Made by a program: the position numbers and the translations under genes
Origin: a virus
Lineage: Duplodnaviria; Heunggongvirae; Uroviricota; Caudoviricetes
DNA length: 7,714 bases
Reading direction: 5' to 3' (one strand)
Virus record (IMG/VR): IMGVR_UViG_2547132077_000009
Notes under the pieces: generated by a model
Databases searched by the model: none
Seen by the model: the letters and a program-made list of their open reading frames with translations, nothing else
Told to the model about the DNA's origin: nothing
Part shown: in pieces, positions 1-7,714 of the stretch
Layout: every line of letters starts with the position of its first letter
How positions within the stretch are numbered: the stretch's first letter is position 1

Positions 1-408
1 ATGGCAACTCTTAAATCAATAATGGCAATAACCACCTTAATAATTTCACTCAATGCATACGCAAACACGAATGACATTAAAACTCTTCAAAAACAACTGA
101 AACCATGGCAACCACTAGAAATCACAGCAAAAGATAGCTCTCTTACCGTTGTTCTCCCTGGTAAAAAAATCACATCTGAAGCCTATAATCATTTAATTAT
201 GTCCGGTGTATGCACCCCACTTTGGACACATGACGCTCCTTCTTCATTTTTAAAAAATGTAAGTGAAATCAATATAGTTAACCAATATAAGTCTATTGGA
301 TATACCTTTGAAGACCCATTGACCACATGCAATGAAATCGCTCCTTTAATGGAAAAACCTGCACAAACAGTGGTGTTATCCAAAACTCATACCTACACAG
401 GTAAGTAA
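1..408 (+). CDS. Hypothetical small secreted/periplasmic protein (135 aa) with N-terminal signal peptide; AT-rich; function unknown
   Basis: ORF with ATG at position 1 and TAA at 406-408. N-terminus MATLKSIMAITTLIISLNAYA|NTND has a basic residue, a hydrophobic core and an A-x-A cleavage-type motif, with no lipobox Cys. The mature part has two Cys. GC content is clearly lower than in the adjacent phage genes (19/60 GC in the first 60 nt). Convergent with ogr and followed by the hairpin at 425-448. The window starts at the ATG, so upstream signals are not visible. Confidence 0.55.
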   Translation: MATLKSIMAITTLIISLNAYANTNDIKTLQKQLKPWQPLEITAKDSSLTVVLPGKKITSEAYNHLIMSGVCTPLWTHDAPSSFLKNVSEINIVNQYKSIGYTFEDPLTTCNEIAPLMEKPAQTVVLSKTHTYTGK

Positions 409-458: not shown

Positions 459-677
459 TTACATCCACATAATTTGCTGCCCTGACGGCAACGGATGCGG
501 CCTCACGGCGTGGACTTCTCCCGGCTTCACGATGTATCGCTGTACCGACTCATAAGTGATGAACGTGGCGCTGCAATTCACGTTCTGACACTGGTGATAA
601 CGCTCTTTTGTCGTGTCAGTGATATAGCGGCTTGTACGCGCATGTGCGGCATGCTGGCATAAAGGACAATGAAACAT
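459..677 (-). CDS. ogr: Ogr, P2-type late-gene transcription activator (72 aa, Cys4 zinc finger)
   Basis: Translation from the ATG at 677-675 gives MFHCPLCQHAAHARTSRYITDTTKERYHQCQNVNCSATFITYESVQRYIVKPGEVHAVRPHPLPSGQQIMWM, which matches P2 Ogr as I recall it, with the C-x2-C-x22-C-x4-C zinc-binding motif. A GAGG Shine-Dalgarno sits about 8 nt upstream of this ATG. The 97-aa version in the ORF track (start at 752) adds an AT-rich leader that begins immediately after the D stop. Confidence 0.85.
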   Translation of the reverse strand: MFHCPLCQHAAHARTSRYITDTTKERYHQCQNVNCSATFITYESVQRYIVKPGEVHAVRPHPLPSGQQIMWM

Positions 678-711
678 CGCGAGCACCTCTTCCGGTTTTG
701 TTGATGGTGCC

Positions 712-740
712 ATTTTAGTTAATTTATCCTTATAAAACAA
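712..740 (-). promoter_or_regulatory. Candidate sigma70 promoter for ogr in the D-ogr spacer
   Basis: On the minus strand: -35 TTGTTT (740-735), 17-bp spacer, -10 TAAAAT (717-712), about 35 nt upstream of the ogr ATG, in an AT-rich stretch. Sequence-motif inference only. Confidence 0.3.
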
Positions 741-758
741 ACAGATAAACAATAGACA

Positions 759-2415: not shown

Positions 2416-4863
2416 TTAACCGTCATGCATCATGCTGGCACGAGCGCGCGCACGTTTATCCCGCTCGTATTTTTCGAGCGCATCCTGTAACTGGCGGTCA
2501 AGCTGTGTCCCCGGCGCAGTGCCACCCGTCAGGCTGATGTGATATTCGTTTTTACTCTGGTCCACATAAGAGCGGCCAGCCGGTGCCGTGACCGGCTGAT
2601 AAGCCTGATAGCCTGCATAAGAGCTGGTCGCCGGAATATAACCACCGCTGCCATACGTGGCGGCTTGAGTTCTGGCGGCGGTCTGGTCAAGTGTGTCTGA
2701 CTCTTTGTTGATAACACCGAGTTTTTCCAGTACCCAGTCAATACCACTGCGCAGTTTGTTGAACGCATTAAGCGGCAGCATCAGCGCGTCAGCCAGTGCC
2801 TGCCCGAACATGACGCCCGTGTCACGGCAACGGTTCAGGGTGTCCTGGGTGGCTTTGACCGGGGCAATCAGGTTTTTAAACCACTGCCACGCGGCCTGTA
2901 ACTTTTCACCCAGCCAGTCAAACACCGGTTTCAGTGGCGTGAACAGCTCCCCCACCGGCGCAAATGCCGCTTTCAGCCCTTCCACCACACCGCCAAAAAA
3001 TGCGCTGACAGGCTCCCAGTATTTACGGATAAGCAACGCCCCGGCGACAATTGCGGCCACCACGGCCACAACCGGCCAGCTAATAGCCCCGATGGCGGTC
3101 ATAACAGCACTGCCAACCGTCGTGAAGACTGCCCCCATTGCGCCTGCTGCCGCGATGATGGCATTGATGCCGGTGATAACCGGCCAGGCGACAAGACCAA
3201 TGGCACCGATGATGCCAATAAGCGCCAGTGCGCCACCGACAATGAGGCCGATGGTTGACGCCAGTGATTTGTTTTTCTTGATCCAGCCGTCGAGTTTTAA
3301 CACATACTTTGTGGCCGTCTGCGTGAGATTACGCAGCGCGCCTTCCTGCTGGTCAAACAGGTCAGTCCCCACCGCCTCATAAGCGGACTGAAACTCCTTA
3401 AAGTCACCGCCGAGGTTGTCCTGCATGATATTTACCAGCTCGGCAGTCTTCCCGTTTGAGGCTTTAAACGCAGCGGTCAGTTTGTCCAGCTTTCCGGTTG
3501 AGGCGGCGGTCATCAGCACGGCGGCGGCTGAGCTGGCCTCCTCCCCGAAAATAGTTTTCATGTATTCAGCCTGCTGGGCAGTACCGAGCCGGTTTTTCTC
3601 AAAACTGGCCTGCATTTCTTTCAGAATGGTAAATATTGGCCGGGTATTTCCCTTGCTGTCTGAGGTTTTCACGCCAAGCTCTTTGAGTGCATCCCATGCT
3701 TTTCCCGTTGGTGCCTGCAGGCGACTTAACACGGCACGGCTTCCCGTCCCCGCCATTGAGCCTGTAATTTTTGCATCATGCAGCGCCCCGACCATTGCGG
3801 CGGTTTCTTCAATGCTGACACCGGCATTTTTTGCCACAGGTGCGGCATAGGTCAGCGCATCGCTCATGCCGTCAAAATCGGCGGCGGTTTTGTTCATCGT
3901 CATGGAGAGAACATCCCCGATATGAGCGACCTTATCGTTTGAAAGCTGAAAGGCGGATTTCATCCCCATCAGCAGGGCAGCGTTTTCTTCCATCGTGCGA
4001 CGGTTCGCCAGCGCCATATTCAGCGTGACCGGCGTTGCCGCCTGAATGGCATCAACATCCCCACCGGCTTTCGCAATAATAATCTGCGCACCGGCTGCAT
4101 CATCTGCCGAGGCGGCGGTATTGTCGCCGAGCTGGCGCGCCTGTTTGCGTAGTGCAGCCATTTCGGCGGAGTCTTTTGCCACTCCGAGCACGGCCTGCAA
4201 TTCTGAGTTTTTCTGCGCAAACTCATAACCGGGCATCAGCAGCTTAACTCCGGCCATCGTTCCCGCAGCAGCAATCCCCACACCGGCAGCACCCACTGAG
4301 GCCATATTTCCGGCCAGTTCCTTGCCTGCCTGATAACGCTGTTTGACTGCGTTAAGTTTTGCCTGTTGTGCACTGACACGCGCCAGCGCGTCACGCTGTC
4401 GGTTAAGCTGTGCGGTGGTTTCACTGATACGGTTTTTCAGTCCCTGCTCATCATGTGCAAGATTGCGGGTATTAATTCCCACAGCGGCCAGTTCCCGCTG
4501 CTGGCGTTTAACGGAATCCGTCAGGCGGTTATATTTCGCCTGTAAGTCCTCCGCCGCACGCTTTGCGGATTCCAGCACTTTCGCCTGAGCACGGGTCGGA
4601 CGTTCGGTGTTTTTAAACTGTGTGGCAAGGGCTTCGGCCTCCTGCCGAGCCTTTTCAAGTGCATGACCAGTCACGGCGAGCTGTGCACTGGTCTTGCGAA
4701 ATCCCTCAATACGGGATGCCTGACCGTTCAGCTCGCGCAGTGATTTTTGTGTTTCCCGGATATCCCCCGACAGCGACTTGCTCGCTGTGCGGATGGATTT
4801 AAACGGGCGGGATGCCTGGTCAACAGCCCTGAGCAATACCTGTAATTTTACATTGTTACTCAT
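2416..4863 (-). CDS. T: gpT, tail tape measure protein (815 aa)
   Basis: Largest ORF in the operon, same length as P2 gpT. The N-terminal part is Q/R/A-rich with a coiled-coil-like character. An Ala/Gly/Ile-rich hydrophobic block of ~80 residues (residues ~533-612, nt ~3028-3267) is typical of tape measure proteins. The start ATG (4863-4861) overlaps the E+E' stop. Confidence 0.9.
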   Translation of the reverse strand: MSNNVKLQVLLRAVDQASRPFKSIRTASKSLSGDIRETQKSLRELNGQASRIEGFRKTSAQLAVTGHALEKARQEAEALATQFKNTERPTRAQAKVLESAKRAAEDLQAKYNRLTDSVKRQQRELAAVGINTRNLAHDEQGLKNRISETTAQLNRQRDALARVSAQQAKLNAVKQRYQAGKELAGNMASVGAAGVGIAAAGTMAGVKLLMPGYEFAQKNSELQAVLGVAKDSAEMAALRKQARQLGDNTAASADDAAGAQIIIAKAGGDVDAIQAATPVTLNMALANRRTMEENAALLMGMKSAFQLSNDKVAHIGDVLSMTMNKTAADFDGMSDALTYAAPVAKNAGVSIEETAAMVGALHDAKITGSMAGTGSRAVLSRLQAPTGKAWDALKELGVKTSDSKGNTRPIFTILKEMQASFEKNRLGTAQQAEYMKTIFGEEASSAAAVLMTAASTGKLDKLTAAFKASNGKTAELVNIMQDNLGGDFKEFQSAYEAVGTDLFDQQEGALRNLTQTATKYVLKLDGWIKKNKSLASTIGLIVGGALALIGIIGAIGLVAWPVITGINAIIAAAGAMGAVFTTVGSAVMTAIGAISWPVVAVVAAIVAGALLIRKYWEPVSAFFGGVVEGLKAAFAPVGELFTPLKPVFDWLGEKLQAAWQWFKNLIAPVKATQDTLNRCRDTGVMFGQALADALMLPLNAFNKLRSGIDWVLEKLGVINKESDTLDQTAARTQAATYGSGGYIPATSSYAGYQAYQPVTAPAGRSYVDQSKNEYHISLTGGTAPGTQLDRQLQDALEKYERDKRARARASMMHDG

Positions 4864-5283
4864 TCGTGTTTCCGCTTCGCCGGAGCGCCTTTTCGCGCCA
4901 TGTGATGAGTTCGGTCAGGCTCATGGGATACAGTTCTGATGGCGGCCAGTGAAATATCACTGCCACATCCGCCATCAGGTCATCGACCGACAGATTTTTC
5001 GGAAACGTCACTGCACCGAGTTCGGCGACAAAAAACCGACCACCTTACCAGCCAGCGCCACAAGGTCAGGCAGTTCCAGTGCGGCGACTTCCTGCTCGGT
5101 CAGCATCGGTGCCGTCATGCGCGGCAACACCTTAATCAGTGCATCAACTTCGGAGTTTGCGACCGCTGCCAGACTGACACCGCGCAGCGTCCCGGCATTG
5201 GGTTTCATCAGCGTGACCTGTTCGATGACCTGCTCACCACGCTTGACCGGATTGTCCAGGGTAATGACATTTTCTTTGTTCAT
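4856..5283 (-). CDS. E+E': gpE+E', tail assembly chaperone made by programmed -1 frameshift (about 142 aa)
   Basis: The slippery heptamer T TTT TTG (5035-5029, minus strand) lies near the 3' end of E. In the -1 frame an open extension (VAELGAVTFPKNLSVDDLMADVAVIFHWPPSELYPMSLTELITWREKALRRSGNTNE) runs to TAA at 4858-4856, which overlaps the T start as ATGAGTAA. The 142-aa total agrees with P2 E+E' as I recall it. This is analogous to lambda G/GT. Confidence 0.7.
5008..5283 (-). CDS. E: gpE, tail assembly chaperone (91 aa)
   Basis: 91-aa ORF between the tube gene and the tape measure gene, matching the P2 E length. It ends ...GFLSPNSVQ with TGA at 5010-5008. The slippery site sits six codons before the stop. 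Confidence 0.85.
   Translation of the reverse strand: MNKENVITLDNPVKRGEQVIEQVTLMKPNAGTLRGVSLAAVANSEVDALIKVLPRMTAPMLTEQEVAALELPDLVALAGKVVGFLSPNSVQ
5029..5035 (-). other. -1 ribosomal frameshift slippery heptamer TTTTTTG (E to E')
   Basis: Plus strand reads c-aaaaaa at 5029-5035, which is TTTTTTG on the minus strand, phased as T TTT TTG in the E reading frame. This is the heptamer I recall being reported for P2 E/E'. Confidence 0.7.
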
Positions 5284-5339: not shown

Positions 5340-5858
5340 TCACAGGCCGATATTGCGGCGGTGTTGCTCCAGTCGGTCGACGCCGTTCACCTTCTCAATC
5401 ATGTTGATGGTGTCGATTTCGACCAGCTCCTTACCGTCCATCGTCAGCCGGAAATAGGTGCAGACCACGGAGATTTTCGACTCGGTGTCTTCTCCCTGTT
5501 TGCCCTCACCGGTGTCGATTTCTTTCTGACGGCCACGCATGACCACTTCGACGGCCACCGTTTCGCCGGTATCGTCGCGCTGGTAAGAGCCTGCAAAACG
5601 AATCGGTACGGCATCCACGCCGGTTGCGGCGTAAAGCTCCCAGATAACCGAATCCGGGAAGCCCCCAAGCGACCACTCCATTGACAGCGCATCGTCATCA
5701 AGGCCGAGGTCTACCGGTGCGCTTCCGTTCATCCCCGCACCGCGATAGTTTTCGAGTTTACGGGTCAGTTTTGGCAGCGTGACGGACTTTGCAACGCCCT
5801 GATAGCTGTAGCCGTTCAGAAAGACGTTCATTAACTTGAGTTTGCGCGGCATTGCCAT
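5340..5858 (-). CDS. FII: gpFII, tail tube protein (172 aa)
   Basis: 172-aa ORF immediately downstream of the sheath gene, with a 12-nt spacer and Shine-Dalgarno AAGGAG. Same length and position as P2 FII. Confidence 0.9.
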   Translation of the reverse strand: MAMPRKLKLMNVFLNGYSYQGVAKSVTLPKLTRKLENYRGAGMNGSAPVDLGLDDDALSMEWSLGGFPDSVIWELYAATGVDAVPIRFAGSYQRDDTGETVAVEVVMRGRQKEIDTGEGKQGEDTESKISVVCTYFRLTMDGKELVEIDTINMIEKVNGVDRLEQHRRNIGL

Positions 5859-5870
5859 CGGTCAGGCTCC

Positions 5871-7061
5871 TTAATTGCTGTTAACCGAGGTGACCAGATT
5901 TGCCAGGTATTTATCGGTAATACGCTGGCGCAGGGTCAGGTTTTCAAGAGGAGGAACCGGGGTATAGTCGTAGTCGATATACAGTTTTCCGGCCTTGAGG
6001 GTTTCCGCATCGTTGGATTCTTCGCTGAACCAGCAGGTCGCATCCACGATATAGCCGTTTGTTTTCAGCTCACGGAATTTGGCATTGATGCCGTCAACGA
6101 TGTCGCGAATCAGCGTTGCGGTGATGGGCTTGTCCACCGCCCACATGTGCGCCTCAGCCATCGTGTCGGCCAGCACCTGCGCGGTGCGGGTGTAGTTTTC
6201 AAAGAGGAACAGCGGGTCATCGGAGCAGGTACGGTTACCCCAGAAGCGGAAGCCGTCGCGGCGAATCAGCGTTGTGACGCCTGACTCGTTAAGCAGGTCA
6301 GCATCGGTGCCGGACTCCTGCAAATCCCAGAATACAGATGCGCTGATGCCGGTAACACCGTTCACCCCGACATTGGACAGCGTTTTATGCCAGCCCTGCT
6401 CCTGGTCGATTTTAGCGCGCAGACCCAGCGCACGAGCGGTGGCATACGCGGTGGTGGTGGTACTGGTGACCGTATCCCATGCGAGGAAATCCGGCCAGAT
6501 GACCATCAGCTCACGCTGGCTGAAATTCTGGCGGTAGGCTTTCACCTCAGAAATGGTTTTACAGCCCCATGCGCTGATATACCCGAAAGCGCGCAGCTTC
6601 TGACAGACTGATGCCATTGCAACAGCCACCTCTTTGGTGTCCAGTCCCGGCACACCGAGAATACGCGGTTTAACACCGGTTACCGACTCCGCCGCCAGCA
6701 GGGCTTTTAGTCCGGTGTACTGACCGTTTTCGTCGGTGGTGCCGATGATATTGGAAACGGTCTGCGCGAGTTTCGTTTCCTCGTCATCACCGGTGCCGTC
6801 TTCCACGCGCACGACAACGGTGACCGGTTTTGACTGGTCAGCGATGGCCTGCAACGATGCCGCCAGCGTGCCTTTTTTACCGGCCTTTGCAATTGCGCTC
6901 TGCACATTGGTAATCAGCACAGGTTTATTGAGGGGGAAGGTTTCCGCATCCGCATCGCTGGCCGTGCAGACCATGCCGACAATGGCAGTGGATACGGTGG
7001 AAATGACGCGGGTGCCGTCGTTAATCTCCAGCACCTGCACGCCGTGATGATAGTCACTCAT
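5871..7061 (-). CDS. FI: gpFI, contractile tail sheath protein (396 aa)
   Basis: 396-aa ORF, first gene of the FI-FII-E-T-U-D block, same length as P2 FI. Shine-Dalgarno GGAG about 8 nt upstream of the ATG (7061-7059). Confidence 0.9.
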   Translation of the reverse strand: MSDYHHGVQVLEINDGTRVISTVSTAIVGMVCTASDADAETFPLNKPVLITNVQSAIAKAGKKGTLAASLQAIADQSKPVTVVVRVEDGTGDDEETKLAQTVSNIIGTTDENGQYTGLKALLAAESVTGVKPRILGVPGLDTKEVAVAMASVCQKLRAFGYISAWGCKTISEVKAYRQNFSQRELMVIWPDFLAWDTVTSTTTTAYATARALGLRAKIDQEQGWHKTLSNVGVNGVTGISASVFWDLQESGTDADLLNESGVTTLIRRDGFRFWGNRTCSDDPLFLFENYTRTAQVLADTMAEAHMWAVDKPITATLIRDIVDGINAKFRELKTNGYIVDATCWFSEESNDAETLKAGKLYIDYDYTPVPPLENLTLRQRITDKYLANLVTSVNSN

Positions 7062-7120: not shown

Positions 7121-7714
7121 CTATTTGTCCCGGTTGGCTAAGGGATGACACAATTTATTCTTTGTCGCTGATGAGGGAAATTTTTTATAGAGCGTGGACA
7201 GACCAATATCAAAAATCAGTGCCACGCGTTGACGTGACTCCCCTGCAGCCAGCAAACGCCCGGCCTGCTCCCACTCACTCGTGGTGAGTTTAGGACGTCT
7301 GCCACCAATACGACCTTTGGCTCTGGCCGCTTCCAGCCCGGCCCGAGTCCGCTCGACAATAAGTTCTCGTTCCATTTCAGCCAGGGCACCCATCACATGA
7401 AAGAAAAAACGCCCCATCGGCGTGCTGGTATCAATAGCATCTGTCAGGCTGCGAAAATTAACGCCGCGTTCGCGCAGTTCCTCAACCAGAATGACCAGAT
7501 GCCGCATACTACGCCCCAGCCTGTCCAGCTTCCAGACCACCAGAGTGTCACCTGCTGATAATGTTCTGAGCAGTTTTTTCAGTCCCGGTCGGTCGGACTT
7601 CGTGCCGCTGATTTTATCCTCAAAAATCAGCTCACATCCTGCACACTCCAGCGCATTACGCTGCAATTCCGTATTCTGGTCATTTGTTGACACGCGGACA
7701 TAGCCAATAAGCAT
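7121..7714 (-). CDS. Site-specific DNA invertase, serine recombinase of the Hin/Gin/Cin/Pin family (197 aa)
   Basis: N-terminus MLIGYVRVSTNDQNTELQRNALECAGCELIFEDKISG... is the canonical invertase catalytic domain (nucleophile Ser9 in the YVRVSTNDQ motif; GDTLVVWKLDRLGRS motif). The C-terminal helix-turn-helix ends ...STLYKKFPSS, like Hin (...STLYRYFPASS). The start codon lies at the window edge (7714-7712), so its promoter and crossover sites are outside the window. Confidence 0.9.
   Translation of the reverse strand: MLIGYVRVSTNDQNTELQRNALECAGCELIFEDKISGTKSDRPGLKKLLRTLSAGDTLVVWKLDRLGRSMRHLVILVEELRERGVNFRSLTDAIDTSTPMGRFFFHVMGALAEMERELIVERTRAGLEAARAKGRIGGRRPKLTTSEWEQAGRLLAAGESRQRVALIFDIGLSTLYKKFPSSATKNKLCHPLANRDK

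What the first reader, a model, noticed from the sequence alone, without database searches (positions are those of the whole stretch)
4856..5283. Programmed -1 frameshift E/E' is intact and is missed by plain ORF calling
The heptamer TTTTTTG (5029-5035, minus strand) is in the correct phase near the end of E. The -1 frame stays open for 57 codons and stops exactly within the tape-measure start (ATGAGTAA). This is the conserved chaperone pair needed for tail assembly in P2-like and lambda-like phages. The six-frame track has no ORF for E' because it has no ATG of its own.
Basis: partly seen in the sequence, partly recalled or inferred. Interest (0 to 1): 0.45.

Follow-up and report, generated by a model that had tools for sequence, protein, structure and literature searches.

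The report
Known P2 E/E' tail-chaperone frameshift
This is the well-known programmed -1 ribosomal frameshift that makes the two tail-assembly chaperones (E and E+E') of phage P2, sitting intact in a P2-like prophage of E. coli; it is real but ordinary and already described.

Summary
On the minus strand, TTTTTTG lies at 5035..5029 in phase T_TTT_TTG, seven codons before the stop of gene E (5283..5008). After a -1 slip the frame stays open for 57 codons. It ends at TAA 4858..4856, inside ATGAGTAA, where the tape-measure gene T starts. The fusion protein is 142 aa.

The window is E. coli 382634_2f chromosome, a complete P2-like prophage. This stretch is about 98% identical to phage P2 (NC_001895), whose record annotates E+E' as a joined CDS with a -1 frameshift at this site. 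The fusion differs from P2's by one residue (S29N).

The -1 part matches Pfam Phage_P2_GpE (E = 2e-22) and E matches Phage_TAC_7. Of 331 relatives parsed, 326 keep E' in the -1 frame and 322 keep an in-phase TTTTTTG. Substitutions in the E'-only part follow the coding pattern of that frame (22/11/39). Most relatives have no start codon for E'.

The verdict is already known and of low interest. One correction: an ORF caller that accepts GTG does list 51 of the 57 codons, and RefSeq annotates that ORF as a separate gene. What is missed is the join to E.

Side notes: rare relatives have 4, 7 or 8 T's that fuse E and E' in the DNA. A strong local hairpin and an SD-like motif show no sign of selection.

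The parts
5008..5283 (-). Gene E, zero-frame product of 91 aa (tail assembly chaperone). ATG at 5283..5281, stop TGA at 5010..5008.
   Evidence: ORF list. Pfam PF10109 Phage_TAC_7 at 47 bits against a cut-off of 25. PHROG 103 'tail protein'. Annotated 'phage tail assembly protein' in the source genome.
5029..5035 (-). Slippery heptamer T_TTT_TTG, read as GGT TTT TTG in the E frame; the site of the -1 shift.
   Evidence: Identical in P2, where the marked frameshift site lies one base after the heptamer's G. In phase in 322 of 331 parsed relatives.
4856..5029 (-). E' extension: 57 codons in the -1 frame (VAELGAV...NTNE) plus the stop TAA at 4858..4856.
   Evidence: Pfam PF06528 Phage_P2_GpE at 78.7 bits, E = 2e-22. 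Variable columns by codon position are 22/11/39 in this frame.
4856..5283 (-). Whole E+E' recoded gene, encoding the 142-aa fusion made by ribosomes that slip.
   Evidence: Fusion built. 141/142 identical to the P2 E+E'. 142-aa database entries are named gpE+E'.
5045..5047 (-). TAA in the -1 frame, five codons upstream of the slip site. It sets the upstream limit of any productive shift into E'.
4861..4863 (-). ATG of the tape-measure gene T (2416..4863), overlapping the E' stop in ATGAGTAA.
   Evidence: Pfam PF10145 PhageMin_Tail for T. The same stop/start overlap occurs in phage 186 and in Yersinia, Klebsiella and Arsenophonus relatives.
5340..5858 (-). Tail tube gene FII, the upstream neighbour that defines the synteny tube, chaperone pair, tape measure.
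   Evidence: Pfam PF04985, E = 2e-60.
4856..5011 (-). The 51-aa GTG-started ORF that mechanical ORF calling and RefSeq give in place of the frameshift product (WP_000143830.1).
   Evidence: This GTG is present only in the P2 clade. 140 of 175 unique relatives have no start codon there.

Best explanation
Genes E and E' of a P2-like prophage are expressed by a programmed -1 ribosomal frameshift.

Most ribosomes translate E (91 aa) to its TGA. A minority, with tRNA-Phe on UUU in the P site and tRNA-Leu on UUG in the A site, slip back one base on U_UUU_UUG. They then read GUC and continue for 57 codons, making the 142-aa E+E' (junction GFL-VAELG). That product ends at a TAA overlapping the start of the tape-measure gene T.

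By analogy with lambda gpG/gpGT, the shared E part binds the tape measure. The E' part recruits the tube protein. The fixed slip frequency sets the E : E+E' ratio needed for tail assembly, and neither protein stays in the virion.

Shown here: the anatomy, the homology, near-identity to the experimentally characterised P2 locus, conservation of the arrangement, and purifying selection on the -1 frame. Inferred from P2 and lambda work: that slippage occurs in this prophage, its rate, and the binding partners.
For: - **Phase and frames:** geometry verified.
- **Identity to P2:** about 98% DNA identity to NC_001895, where E+E' is annotated as a join with a -1 frameshift one base after the heptamer's G. 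The fusion protein is 141/142 identical.
- **Pfam:** E matches Phage_TAC_7 and the -1 part matches Phage_P2_GpE at E = 2e-22.
- **Synteny:** sheath, tube, E/E', tape measure, U, D, ogr, inside a complete prophage.
- **Phage records:** tblastn of the fusion finds 418 phage records. Every listed row that covers both parts is split into two pieces, meaning two frames.
- **Frame conservation:** 326 of 331 parsed relatives keep E' in the -1 frame, and 322 keep an in-phase TTTTTTG (228 of 235 unique sequences).
- **Other slippery heptamers in distant relatives:** TTTTTTT, TTTTTTC, AAATTTT and GGGAAAG.
- **Coding signature:** variable columns in the E'-only region are 22/11/39 by codon position in the E' frame.
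- **No start codon:** 140 of 175 unique relatives have no ATG, GTG or TTG between the slip site and the conserved E' domain.
- **Literature:** P2 shifts at TTTTTTG to give E (91 aa) and E+E' (142 aa) (PMC3091744). Lambda G/GT mechanism and a 2- to 3-fold higher efficiency in P2 (PMC5009743).
Against: - Nothing in the data contradicts this explanation.
- No protein or ribosome-level evidence exists for this particular prophage.
- No stimulatory element was found. There is no conserved downstream structure at the usual 5-9 nt spacing, and the SD-like motif upstream is not beyond what synonymous recoding gives. This agrees with what is reported for P2.
- Rare relatives carry 4, 7 or 8 T's that fuse E and E' in the DNA. 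The arrangement is therefore not absolutely invariant, or the T-run is error-prone in sequencing.
- The primary paper (Christie 2002, PMC135442) is not held in the library and could not be read.
Confidence: 0.95

Rival explanations
1. E' is an independent small gene of 51 aa, initiated at GTG 5011, as RefSeq annotates it ('GpE family phage tail protein'), and is not a frameshift extension.
For: A GTG-started ORF at 4856..5011 exists and is annotated as its own CDS in the source genome and in many phage records. A weak GGTG lies a few bases upstream of the GTG.
Against: The GTG is confined to the P2 clade. 140 of 175 unique relatives have no ATG, GTG or TTG between the slip site and the conserved domain, and the starts chosen by annotators differ from phage to phage. 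The in-phase heptamer is conserved in 322 of 331 relatives. The curated P2 record uses the join. P2 is reported to make the 142-aa E+E' from the E start.
Confidence: 0.03
2. The fusion is made with a different junction (GFF-VAELG). This could arise by RNA polymerase adding one U on the T6 run, or by a P-site-only slip of tRNA-Phe before the A site is filled, rather than by the tandem slip after decoding UUG.
For: The outcome in frame is the same. DNA variants with 7 T's encode exactly GFFVAELG, which shows the T-run is slippage-prone at the nucleic-acid level.
Against: Six T's is shorter than the runs (about 8-9 or more) at which bacterial transcriptional slippage is efficient (my own knowledge, not tested here). 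The last base G of the heptamer is conserved in 228 of 235 unique sequences. That fits an A-site UUG requirement better than a plain T-run. The literature treats the event as ribosomal.
Confidence: 0.04
3. E and E' are one gene broken by a frameshift mutation in a decaying prophage, or the open -1 frame is a chance ORF.
For: A few relatives do have a contiguous E-E' ORF.
Against: The two-frame arrangement is the rule: 326 of 331 relatives, including lytically viable, sequenced phages (P2, 186, L-413C, Wphi). The prophage is otherwise complete. A Pfam hit at E = 2e-22 and a codon-position pattern of 22/11/39 exclude a chance ORF.
Confidence: 0.01

Closest known systems
Bacteriophage P2 genes E and E+E' (NC_001895: P2p26 / P2p25; Christie et al. 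2002)
   Same: Same locus in every respect tested: about 98% DNA identity, identical heptamer and phase, identical E' protein, the fusion 141/142 identical (S29N), and the same stop/start overlap with T.
   Different: Here it sits in a resident prophage of E. coli 382634_2f. That prophage also carries a Din-type invertase next to FI and an extra low-GC gene after ogr, both absent from the P2 reference. RefSeq models it as two separate CDS instead of a join.
Phage 186 orf51/orf52 and the E/E' pairs of other Peduoviridae (Burkholderia KS5/KS14/KL3, Pseudomonas phiCTX-like, Smp131 and others)
   Same: Same synteny and the same -1 arrangement. TTTTTTG is conserved down to about 45% protein identity.
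   Different: Sequences are diverged. A few use other heptamers: TTTTTTT in Smp131, TTTTTTC in Vibrio MAR, AAATTTT in Xuanwuvirus P88 and GGGAAAG in Mannheimia PHL101.
Phage lambda gpG / gpGT tail assembly chaperones (Levin 1993; Xu, Hendrix and Duda 2004, 2013, 2014)
   Same: Same position between the major tail protein and the tape measure. Same logic: a short product and a -1 extended product sharing the N-terminus, made in a fixed ratio. The predicted fold of E weakly resembles the HK97 chaperone.
   Different: No detectable sequence similarity: no lambda-type family appeared among the Pfam hits. The heptamer differs (G_GGA_AAG in lambda). P2 efficiency is reported as 2- to 3-fold higher. 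P2 has a contractile tail with a sheath.
E. coli dnaX -1 frameshift (A_AAA_AAG with upstream SD and downstream stem-loop)
   Same: A tandem -1 slip on an X_XXY_YYZ heptamer gives two products with a common N-terminus.
   Different: No stimulators are evident here. The SD-like AAGGTGG is only 4 nt upstream and is no stronger than synonymous recodings give. There is no conserved hairpin at 5-9 nt downstream. There is no Rfam match.

Membership tests
P2-type E / E+E' tail assembly chaperone pair | The zero-frame protein belongs to the E family (Pfam PF10109 Phage_TAC_7). | tested here: met
   47 bits against a cut-off of 25, residues 7-85. PHROG 103 at E = 4e-43.
P2-type E / E+E' tail assembly chaperone pair | The -1 frame product belongs to the GpE (E') family (Pfam PF06528). 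| tested here: met
   78.7 bits against a cut-off of 23, E = 2e-22, for the 57-aa -1 peptide alone.
P2-type E / E+E' tail assembly chaperone pair | The pair is located between the tail tube gene and the tape-measure gene. | tested here: met
   FII at 5858..5340, E/E' at 5283..4856, T at 4863..2416.
P2-type E / E+E' tail assembly chaperone pair | An in-phase slippery heptamer (TTTTTTG) lies in the short overlap of the two frames, near the 3' end of E. | tested here: met
   T_TTT_TTG at 5035..5029. The overlap window is bounded by the -1 frame TAA at 5047..5045 and the E stop at 5010..5008.
P2-type E / E+E' tail assembly chaperone pair | E' has no conserved initiation site of its own. | tested here: met
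   There is no ATG. The single GTG is specific to the P2 clade. 140 of 175 unique relatives have no start codon.
P2-type E / E+E' tail assembly chaperone pair | The -1 frame is under purifying selection as coding sequence. | tested here: met
   Variable columns are 22/11/39 (codon positions 1/2/3) in the E'-only part across 86 unique sequences.
P2-type E / E+E' tail assembly chaperone pair | The fusion protein is actually produced by a -1 shift (about 10% in P2), and both products are essential for tail assembly. | not testable with these tools
   This rests on P2 experiments (Christie 2002, cited; the 10% figure is from my memory of that paper, which could not be opened).
Lambda G/GT-type tail assembly chaperones (conserved frameshift of long-tailed phages) | Two products share an N-terminus through a -1 shift, encoded just upstream of the tape measure. 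| tested here: met
   at the level of anatomy only.
Lambda G/GT-type tail assembly chaperones (conserved frameshift of long-tailed phages) | Sequence homology to lambda gpG/gpT. | tested here: not met
   Only PF10109 and PF06528 are hit. No PDB sequence match up to E = 1. So this works like G/GT but is not a sequence-family member.
Lambda G/GT-type tail assembly chaperones (conserved frameshift of long-tailed phages) | Shared chaperone fold. | tested here: inconclusive
Lambda G/GT-type tail assembly chaperones (conserved frameshift of long-tailed phages) | The N-part binds the tape measure and the C-extension binds the major tail (tube) protein. | not testable with these tools
   Inferred from the lambda work summarised in PMC5009743.
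Stimulated -1 frameshift sites of the dnaX/IS type | An upstream SD-like stimulator at about 10-14 nt and/or a downstream stem-loop or pseudoknot at about 5-9 nt. | tested here: not met
   The SD-like AAGGTGG lies 4 nt upstream and is not beyond synonymous recodings (fraction 0.11; across clades 0.09-0.95). A 5-bp hairpin 1 nt downstream is not conserved. The strong hairpin lies 51 nt downstream and shows no covariation. No Rfam hit.

The most novel reading that the evidence does not exclude
The T-run of the slip site may also be a DNA-level variable tract. Natural relatives exist with 7 T's (three independent samples, including the complete genome CP048935.1), 4 T's (11 Logan contigs of one study) and 8 T's (one Klebsiella-type IMG/VR contig). 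All of these hard-wire E and E' into one ORF with no separate E.

If these variants are real and the phages or tailocins are functional, then the E : E+E' ratio thought to be essential would be dispensable in some lineages. Alternatively, E would have to be supplied in another way, for example by a compensating shift on the shortened or lengthened run.
Probability: 0.07. Interest if true: 0.35.

Novelty: already known. Interest (0 to 1): 0.06.

Why it matters
Scientifically this adds nothing new. The P2 E/E' frameshift has been a textbook case of recoding since 2002, and this copy is essentially the P2 sequence. About 3000 of the 5426 complete E. coli genomes match at least part of the window that contains it.

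Its practical value is for annotation. RefSeq here, and many phage records, model E' as a free-standing 37-51 aa gene with arbitrary start codons instead of a join. The 142-aa chaperone is therefore absent from the proteome of this genome.

The result also confirms that the tail module of this prophage is intact at its most fragile point.

Tried and rejected
1. **Downstream stimulatory structure.** The 99 nt after the heptamer fold well (-38.6 kcal/mol, z = -3.0). This is due to a nested perfect hairpin at about 4978-4935 (CUGAUGGCGG...CCGCCAUCAG), 51 nt from the slip site. Across 87 unique relatives its synonymous positions vary freely with no compensatory change. Within the P2/186 clade it is merely retained, with some pair-breaking variants. 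I rejected it as a demonstrated element. The small hairpin 1 nt downstream is not conserved either.

2. **Upstream SD-like AAGGTGG, 4 nt before the heptamer.** It is present in many clades, but its anti-SD binding energy is not beyond synonymous recodings of the same peptide. Dropped.

3. **Database searches with no result.**
   - Rfam: only two sub-threshold chance hits.
   - NCBIfam: no model hit for E, E' or the fusion.
   - PDB sequence search: nothing.

4. **Primary paper.** Christie 2002 could not be opened by DOI or by PMC id. Its content is cited second-hand or from memory and is marked as such.

5. **First IMG/VR scan.** It returned only near-identical loci. Diversity had to be obtained by tblastn against phage records and by three further scans seeded with distant fusions.

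6. **Crossover sites of the neighbouring invertible segment.** A generic inverted-repeat search did not find them. A gix/cix-like pattern search did.
Full report
**Where the window comes from.** The 7714-bp window is 100% identical to E. coli strain 382634_2f chromosome NZ_CP039403.1, 257752-265465. It lies in a complete P2-like prophage next to fieF. On the minus strand it carries, in order:

- a Din-type DNA invertase (7714..7121)
- tail sheath FI (7061..5871)
- tail tube FII (5858..5340)
- E (5283..5008)
- tape measure T (4863..2416)
- U, D and ogr

On the plus strand there is a low-GC ORF at 1..408.

- TTTTTTG occupies 5035..5029 on the minus strand.
- The first T is codon position 3 of GGT, so the E frame reads GGT TTT TTG, which is T_TTT_TTG.
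- After a -1 slip the reading continues GTC GCC GAA... for 57 sense codons.
- It ends at TAA 4858..4856 within AATGAGTAA, where ATG 4863..4861 starts T.
- The fusion is 142 aa with the junction GFL-VAELGAV.
- The -1 frame is closed five codons upstream (TAA 5047..5045) and E ends seven codons downstream. Any productive shift must therefore happen in a window of about 12 codons, and this heptamer is the only in-phase slippery motif in it.

**Is it more than chance?** The heptamer alone is not unusual: 3 in the window against 2.06 expected. The open frame alone is only mildly unusual: 2.5% of -1 positions in the seven genes have 57 or more open codons. In-phase XXXYYYZ motifs are rare, 6 in 2224 codons, so the joint expectation for the whole window is about 0.15. 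The position is exactly the one predicted by synteny. What removes doubt is that the 57-aa -1 peptive on its own hits Pfam PF06528 (Phage_P2_GpE) at 78.7 bits, E = 2e-22, while E hits PF10109 (Phage_TAC_7).

**What it is.**

- The 461 bp around the site are about 98% identical to phage P2 NC_001895, with 11 mismatches.
- The P2 record annotates E+E' as a two-piece CDS ('shares amino terminus with gpE; -1 frameshift; essential tail protein'). Its misc_feature for the shift site (record 19685) lies one base after the heptamer's final G (19684).
- The fusion protein built from the window differs from the one built the same way from P2 at a single residue, S29N. The E' part is identical.
- 74 phage records match the region at 95% identity or more.
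- 2992 of 5426 complete E. coli genomes match at least part of the window.

**Comparative evidence.**

- tblastn of the fusion against 50,697 phage records finds 418 records. Every listed row that covers both halves is split into two pieces, meaning two frames.
- I fetched 16 diverse representatives and 320 IMG/VR loci seeded with P2-, 186-, Klebsiella- and Pseudomonas-type fusions.
- Of 331 loci that could be parsed, 326 have E' in the -1 frame relative to E, and 322 carry an in-phase TTTTTTG (228 of 235 unique sequences).
- Distant members use other canonical heptamers at the same place: TTTTTTT (Smp131), TTTTTTC (Vibrio MAR), AAATTTT (Xuanwuvirus P88) and GGGAAAG (Mannheimia PHL101).
- In the part of E' that does not overlap E, variable alignment columns among 86 unique P2/186-type sequences fall 22/11/39 on codon positions 1/2/3 of the E' frame. 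This is the signature of a translated frame.
- 140 of 175 unique relatives have no ATG, GTG or TTG between the slip site and the conserved E' domain. The GTG at 5011 that RefSeq uses is confined to the P2 clade. Annotators of other phages start 'GpE' at arbitrary internal codons.

**Mechanism.** The best-supported mechanism is the canonical tandem -1 slip on U_UUU_UUG. It yields E (91 aa) from most ribosomes and E+E' (142 aa) from a minority.

Lynch et al. 2010 state this for P2 and note that no downstream hairpin is found in P2 or its Burkholderia relatives (PMC3091744). Atkins et al. 2016 summarise the lambda G/GT model: the G part binds the tape measure, the T part binds the major tail protein, the ratio is about 30:1, and neither protein is in the virion. 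They also say the efficiency in P2-type phages is 2- to 3-fold higher (PMC5009743). My recollection of Christie et al. 2002 is about 10% efficiency with E' essential. That paper could not be opened.

**Stimulators looked for and not found.** A nested perfect hairpin at about 4978-4935 makes the downstream 99 nt fold unusually well (z = -3.0). It lies 51 nt from the slip site, shows no compensatory changes, and is lost outside the P2/186 clade. An SD-like AAGGTGG 4 nt upstream is no stronger than synonymous recodings of the same peptide would give. Rfam has nothing.

**Rival explanations.** Independent initiation at GTG 5011 (the RefSeq model), an alternative GFF junction through transcriptional or P-site-only slippage, and a broken gene or chance ORF are each unlikely for the reasons above. 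Mass spectrometry of the junction peptide would separate the first two from the favoured model.

**Correction to the finding.** It is not true that no ORF appears for E'. A GTG-tolerant ORF list shows 4856..5011 (51 aa), and RefSeq annotates it as WP_000143830.1 'GpE family phage tail protein', separate from E. What is missed is the join, and hence the 142-aa protein.

**Verdict.** This is the already known P2 E/E' recoding site in an ordinary prophage copy, so interest is low. The only mildly open point is the status of rare relatives whose T-run length (4, 7 or 8) fuses E and E' in the DNA.

Noticed in passing
window 4856-5011 and 5008-5283 (source genome E4311_RS01305 / RS01300): RefSeq annotates E' as a free-standing 51-aa CDS from GTG 5011 ('GpE family phage tail protein') and E as a separate CDS. 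It does not use a ribosomal-slippage join, so the 142-aa E+E' is absent from this genome's proteome. Many phage records do the same, with different arbitrary starts.
   Followed up: yes
L344-L346 (gene at 601-1029, or 115-543 in L346; T-run at 847 or 361); includes NCBI CP048935.1: Three independent samples carry 7 T's (GGTTTTTTTGTC) instead of 6, giving one contiguous 142-aa E-E' ORF with junction GFFVAELG. Their genes differ from each other by 8-11 nt. Whether this is a real mutation or a homopolymer sequencing error is undecided.
   Followed up: partly
L004-L007 (T-run at about 3247 in L004); L184: A diverged P2-like phage (65% identity) in 11 Logan contigs of one study has only 4 T's (GGTTTTGTC). 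This gives an in-frame 144-aa E-E' fusion with otherwise intact sheath, tube and tape-measure genes. One Klebsiella-type IMG/VR contig (L184) has 8 T's in place of 7 and is also fused.
   Followed up: partly
window about 4935-4978, minus strand: A nested perfect hairpin lies inside the E' coding region: a 10-bp stem CUGAUGGCGG/CCGCCAUCAG enclosing a 6-bp stem CAGUGA/UCACUG. It has about -25 kcal/mol, and the 99-nt context has z = -3.0. It overlaps the most conserved peptide motifs (DDLMAD...HWPPSE). It is retained in the P2/186 clade, but shows no compensatory changes and is lost in more distant relatives.
   Followed up: yes
window 5040-5046, minus strand: An SD-like AAGGTGG lies 4 nt upstream of the slippery heptamer, and an xAGGT core recurs in several clades with different residues (K/E/Q-V). 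Its anti-SD pairing energy is not beyond synonymous recodings, so there is no evidence that it is selected.
   Followed up: yes
window 1-408, plus strand: A 135-aa ORF with an N-terminal signal-peptide-like stretch has GC of 36% against 55.5% for the tail genes. It has no Pfam hit but a full-length match to PHROG 3807 (unknown function). Similarity to P2 ends right after the ogr terminator (about window 420). This looks like a cargo ('moron') gene between ogr and the prophage end next to fieF.
   Followed up: partly
window 7121-7714 (minus strand); L003 27770-27795 and 29633-29658: A Din-family serine DNA invertase (PHROG 125, E = 1e-100) sits directly upstream of FI and is absent from the P2 reference. 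Just outside the window, two gix/cix-like crossover sites in inverted orientation (TTCTCCCAAACCAACGTTT and TTCTCCCAAACCAAGGTAT) bracket about 1.9 kb. That segment holds alternative tail-fibre C-terminal and assembly genes, so it is probably an invertible host-range segment.
   Followed up: partly
window 459-752, minus strand: The mechanical ORF list gives a 97-aa TTG-started ORF for ogr. The annotated gene is the 72-aa ATG-started OgrK (459..677), followed by the P2-type rho-independent terminator (GAAAGCCCCTCAGTCGAGGGGCTTT).
   Followed up: no
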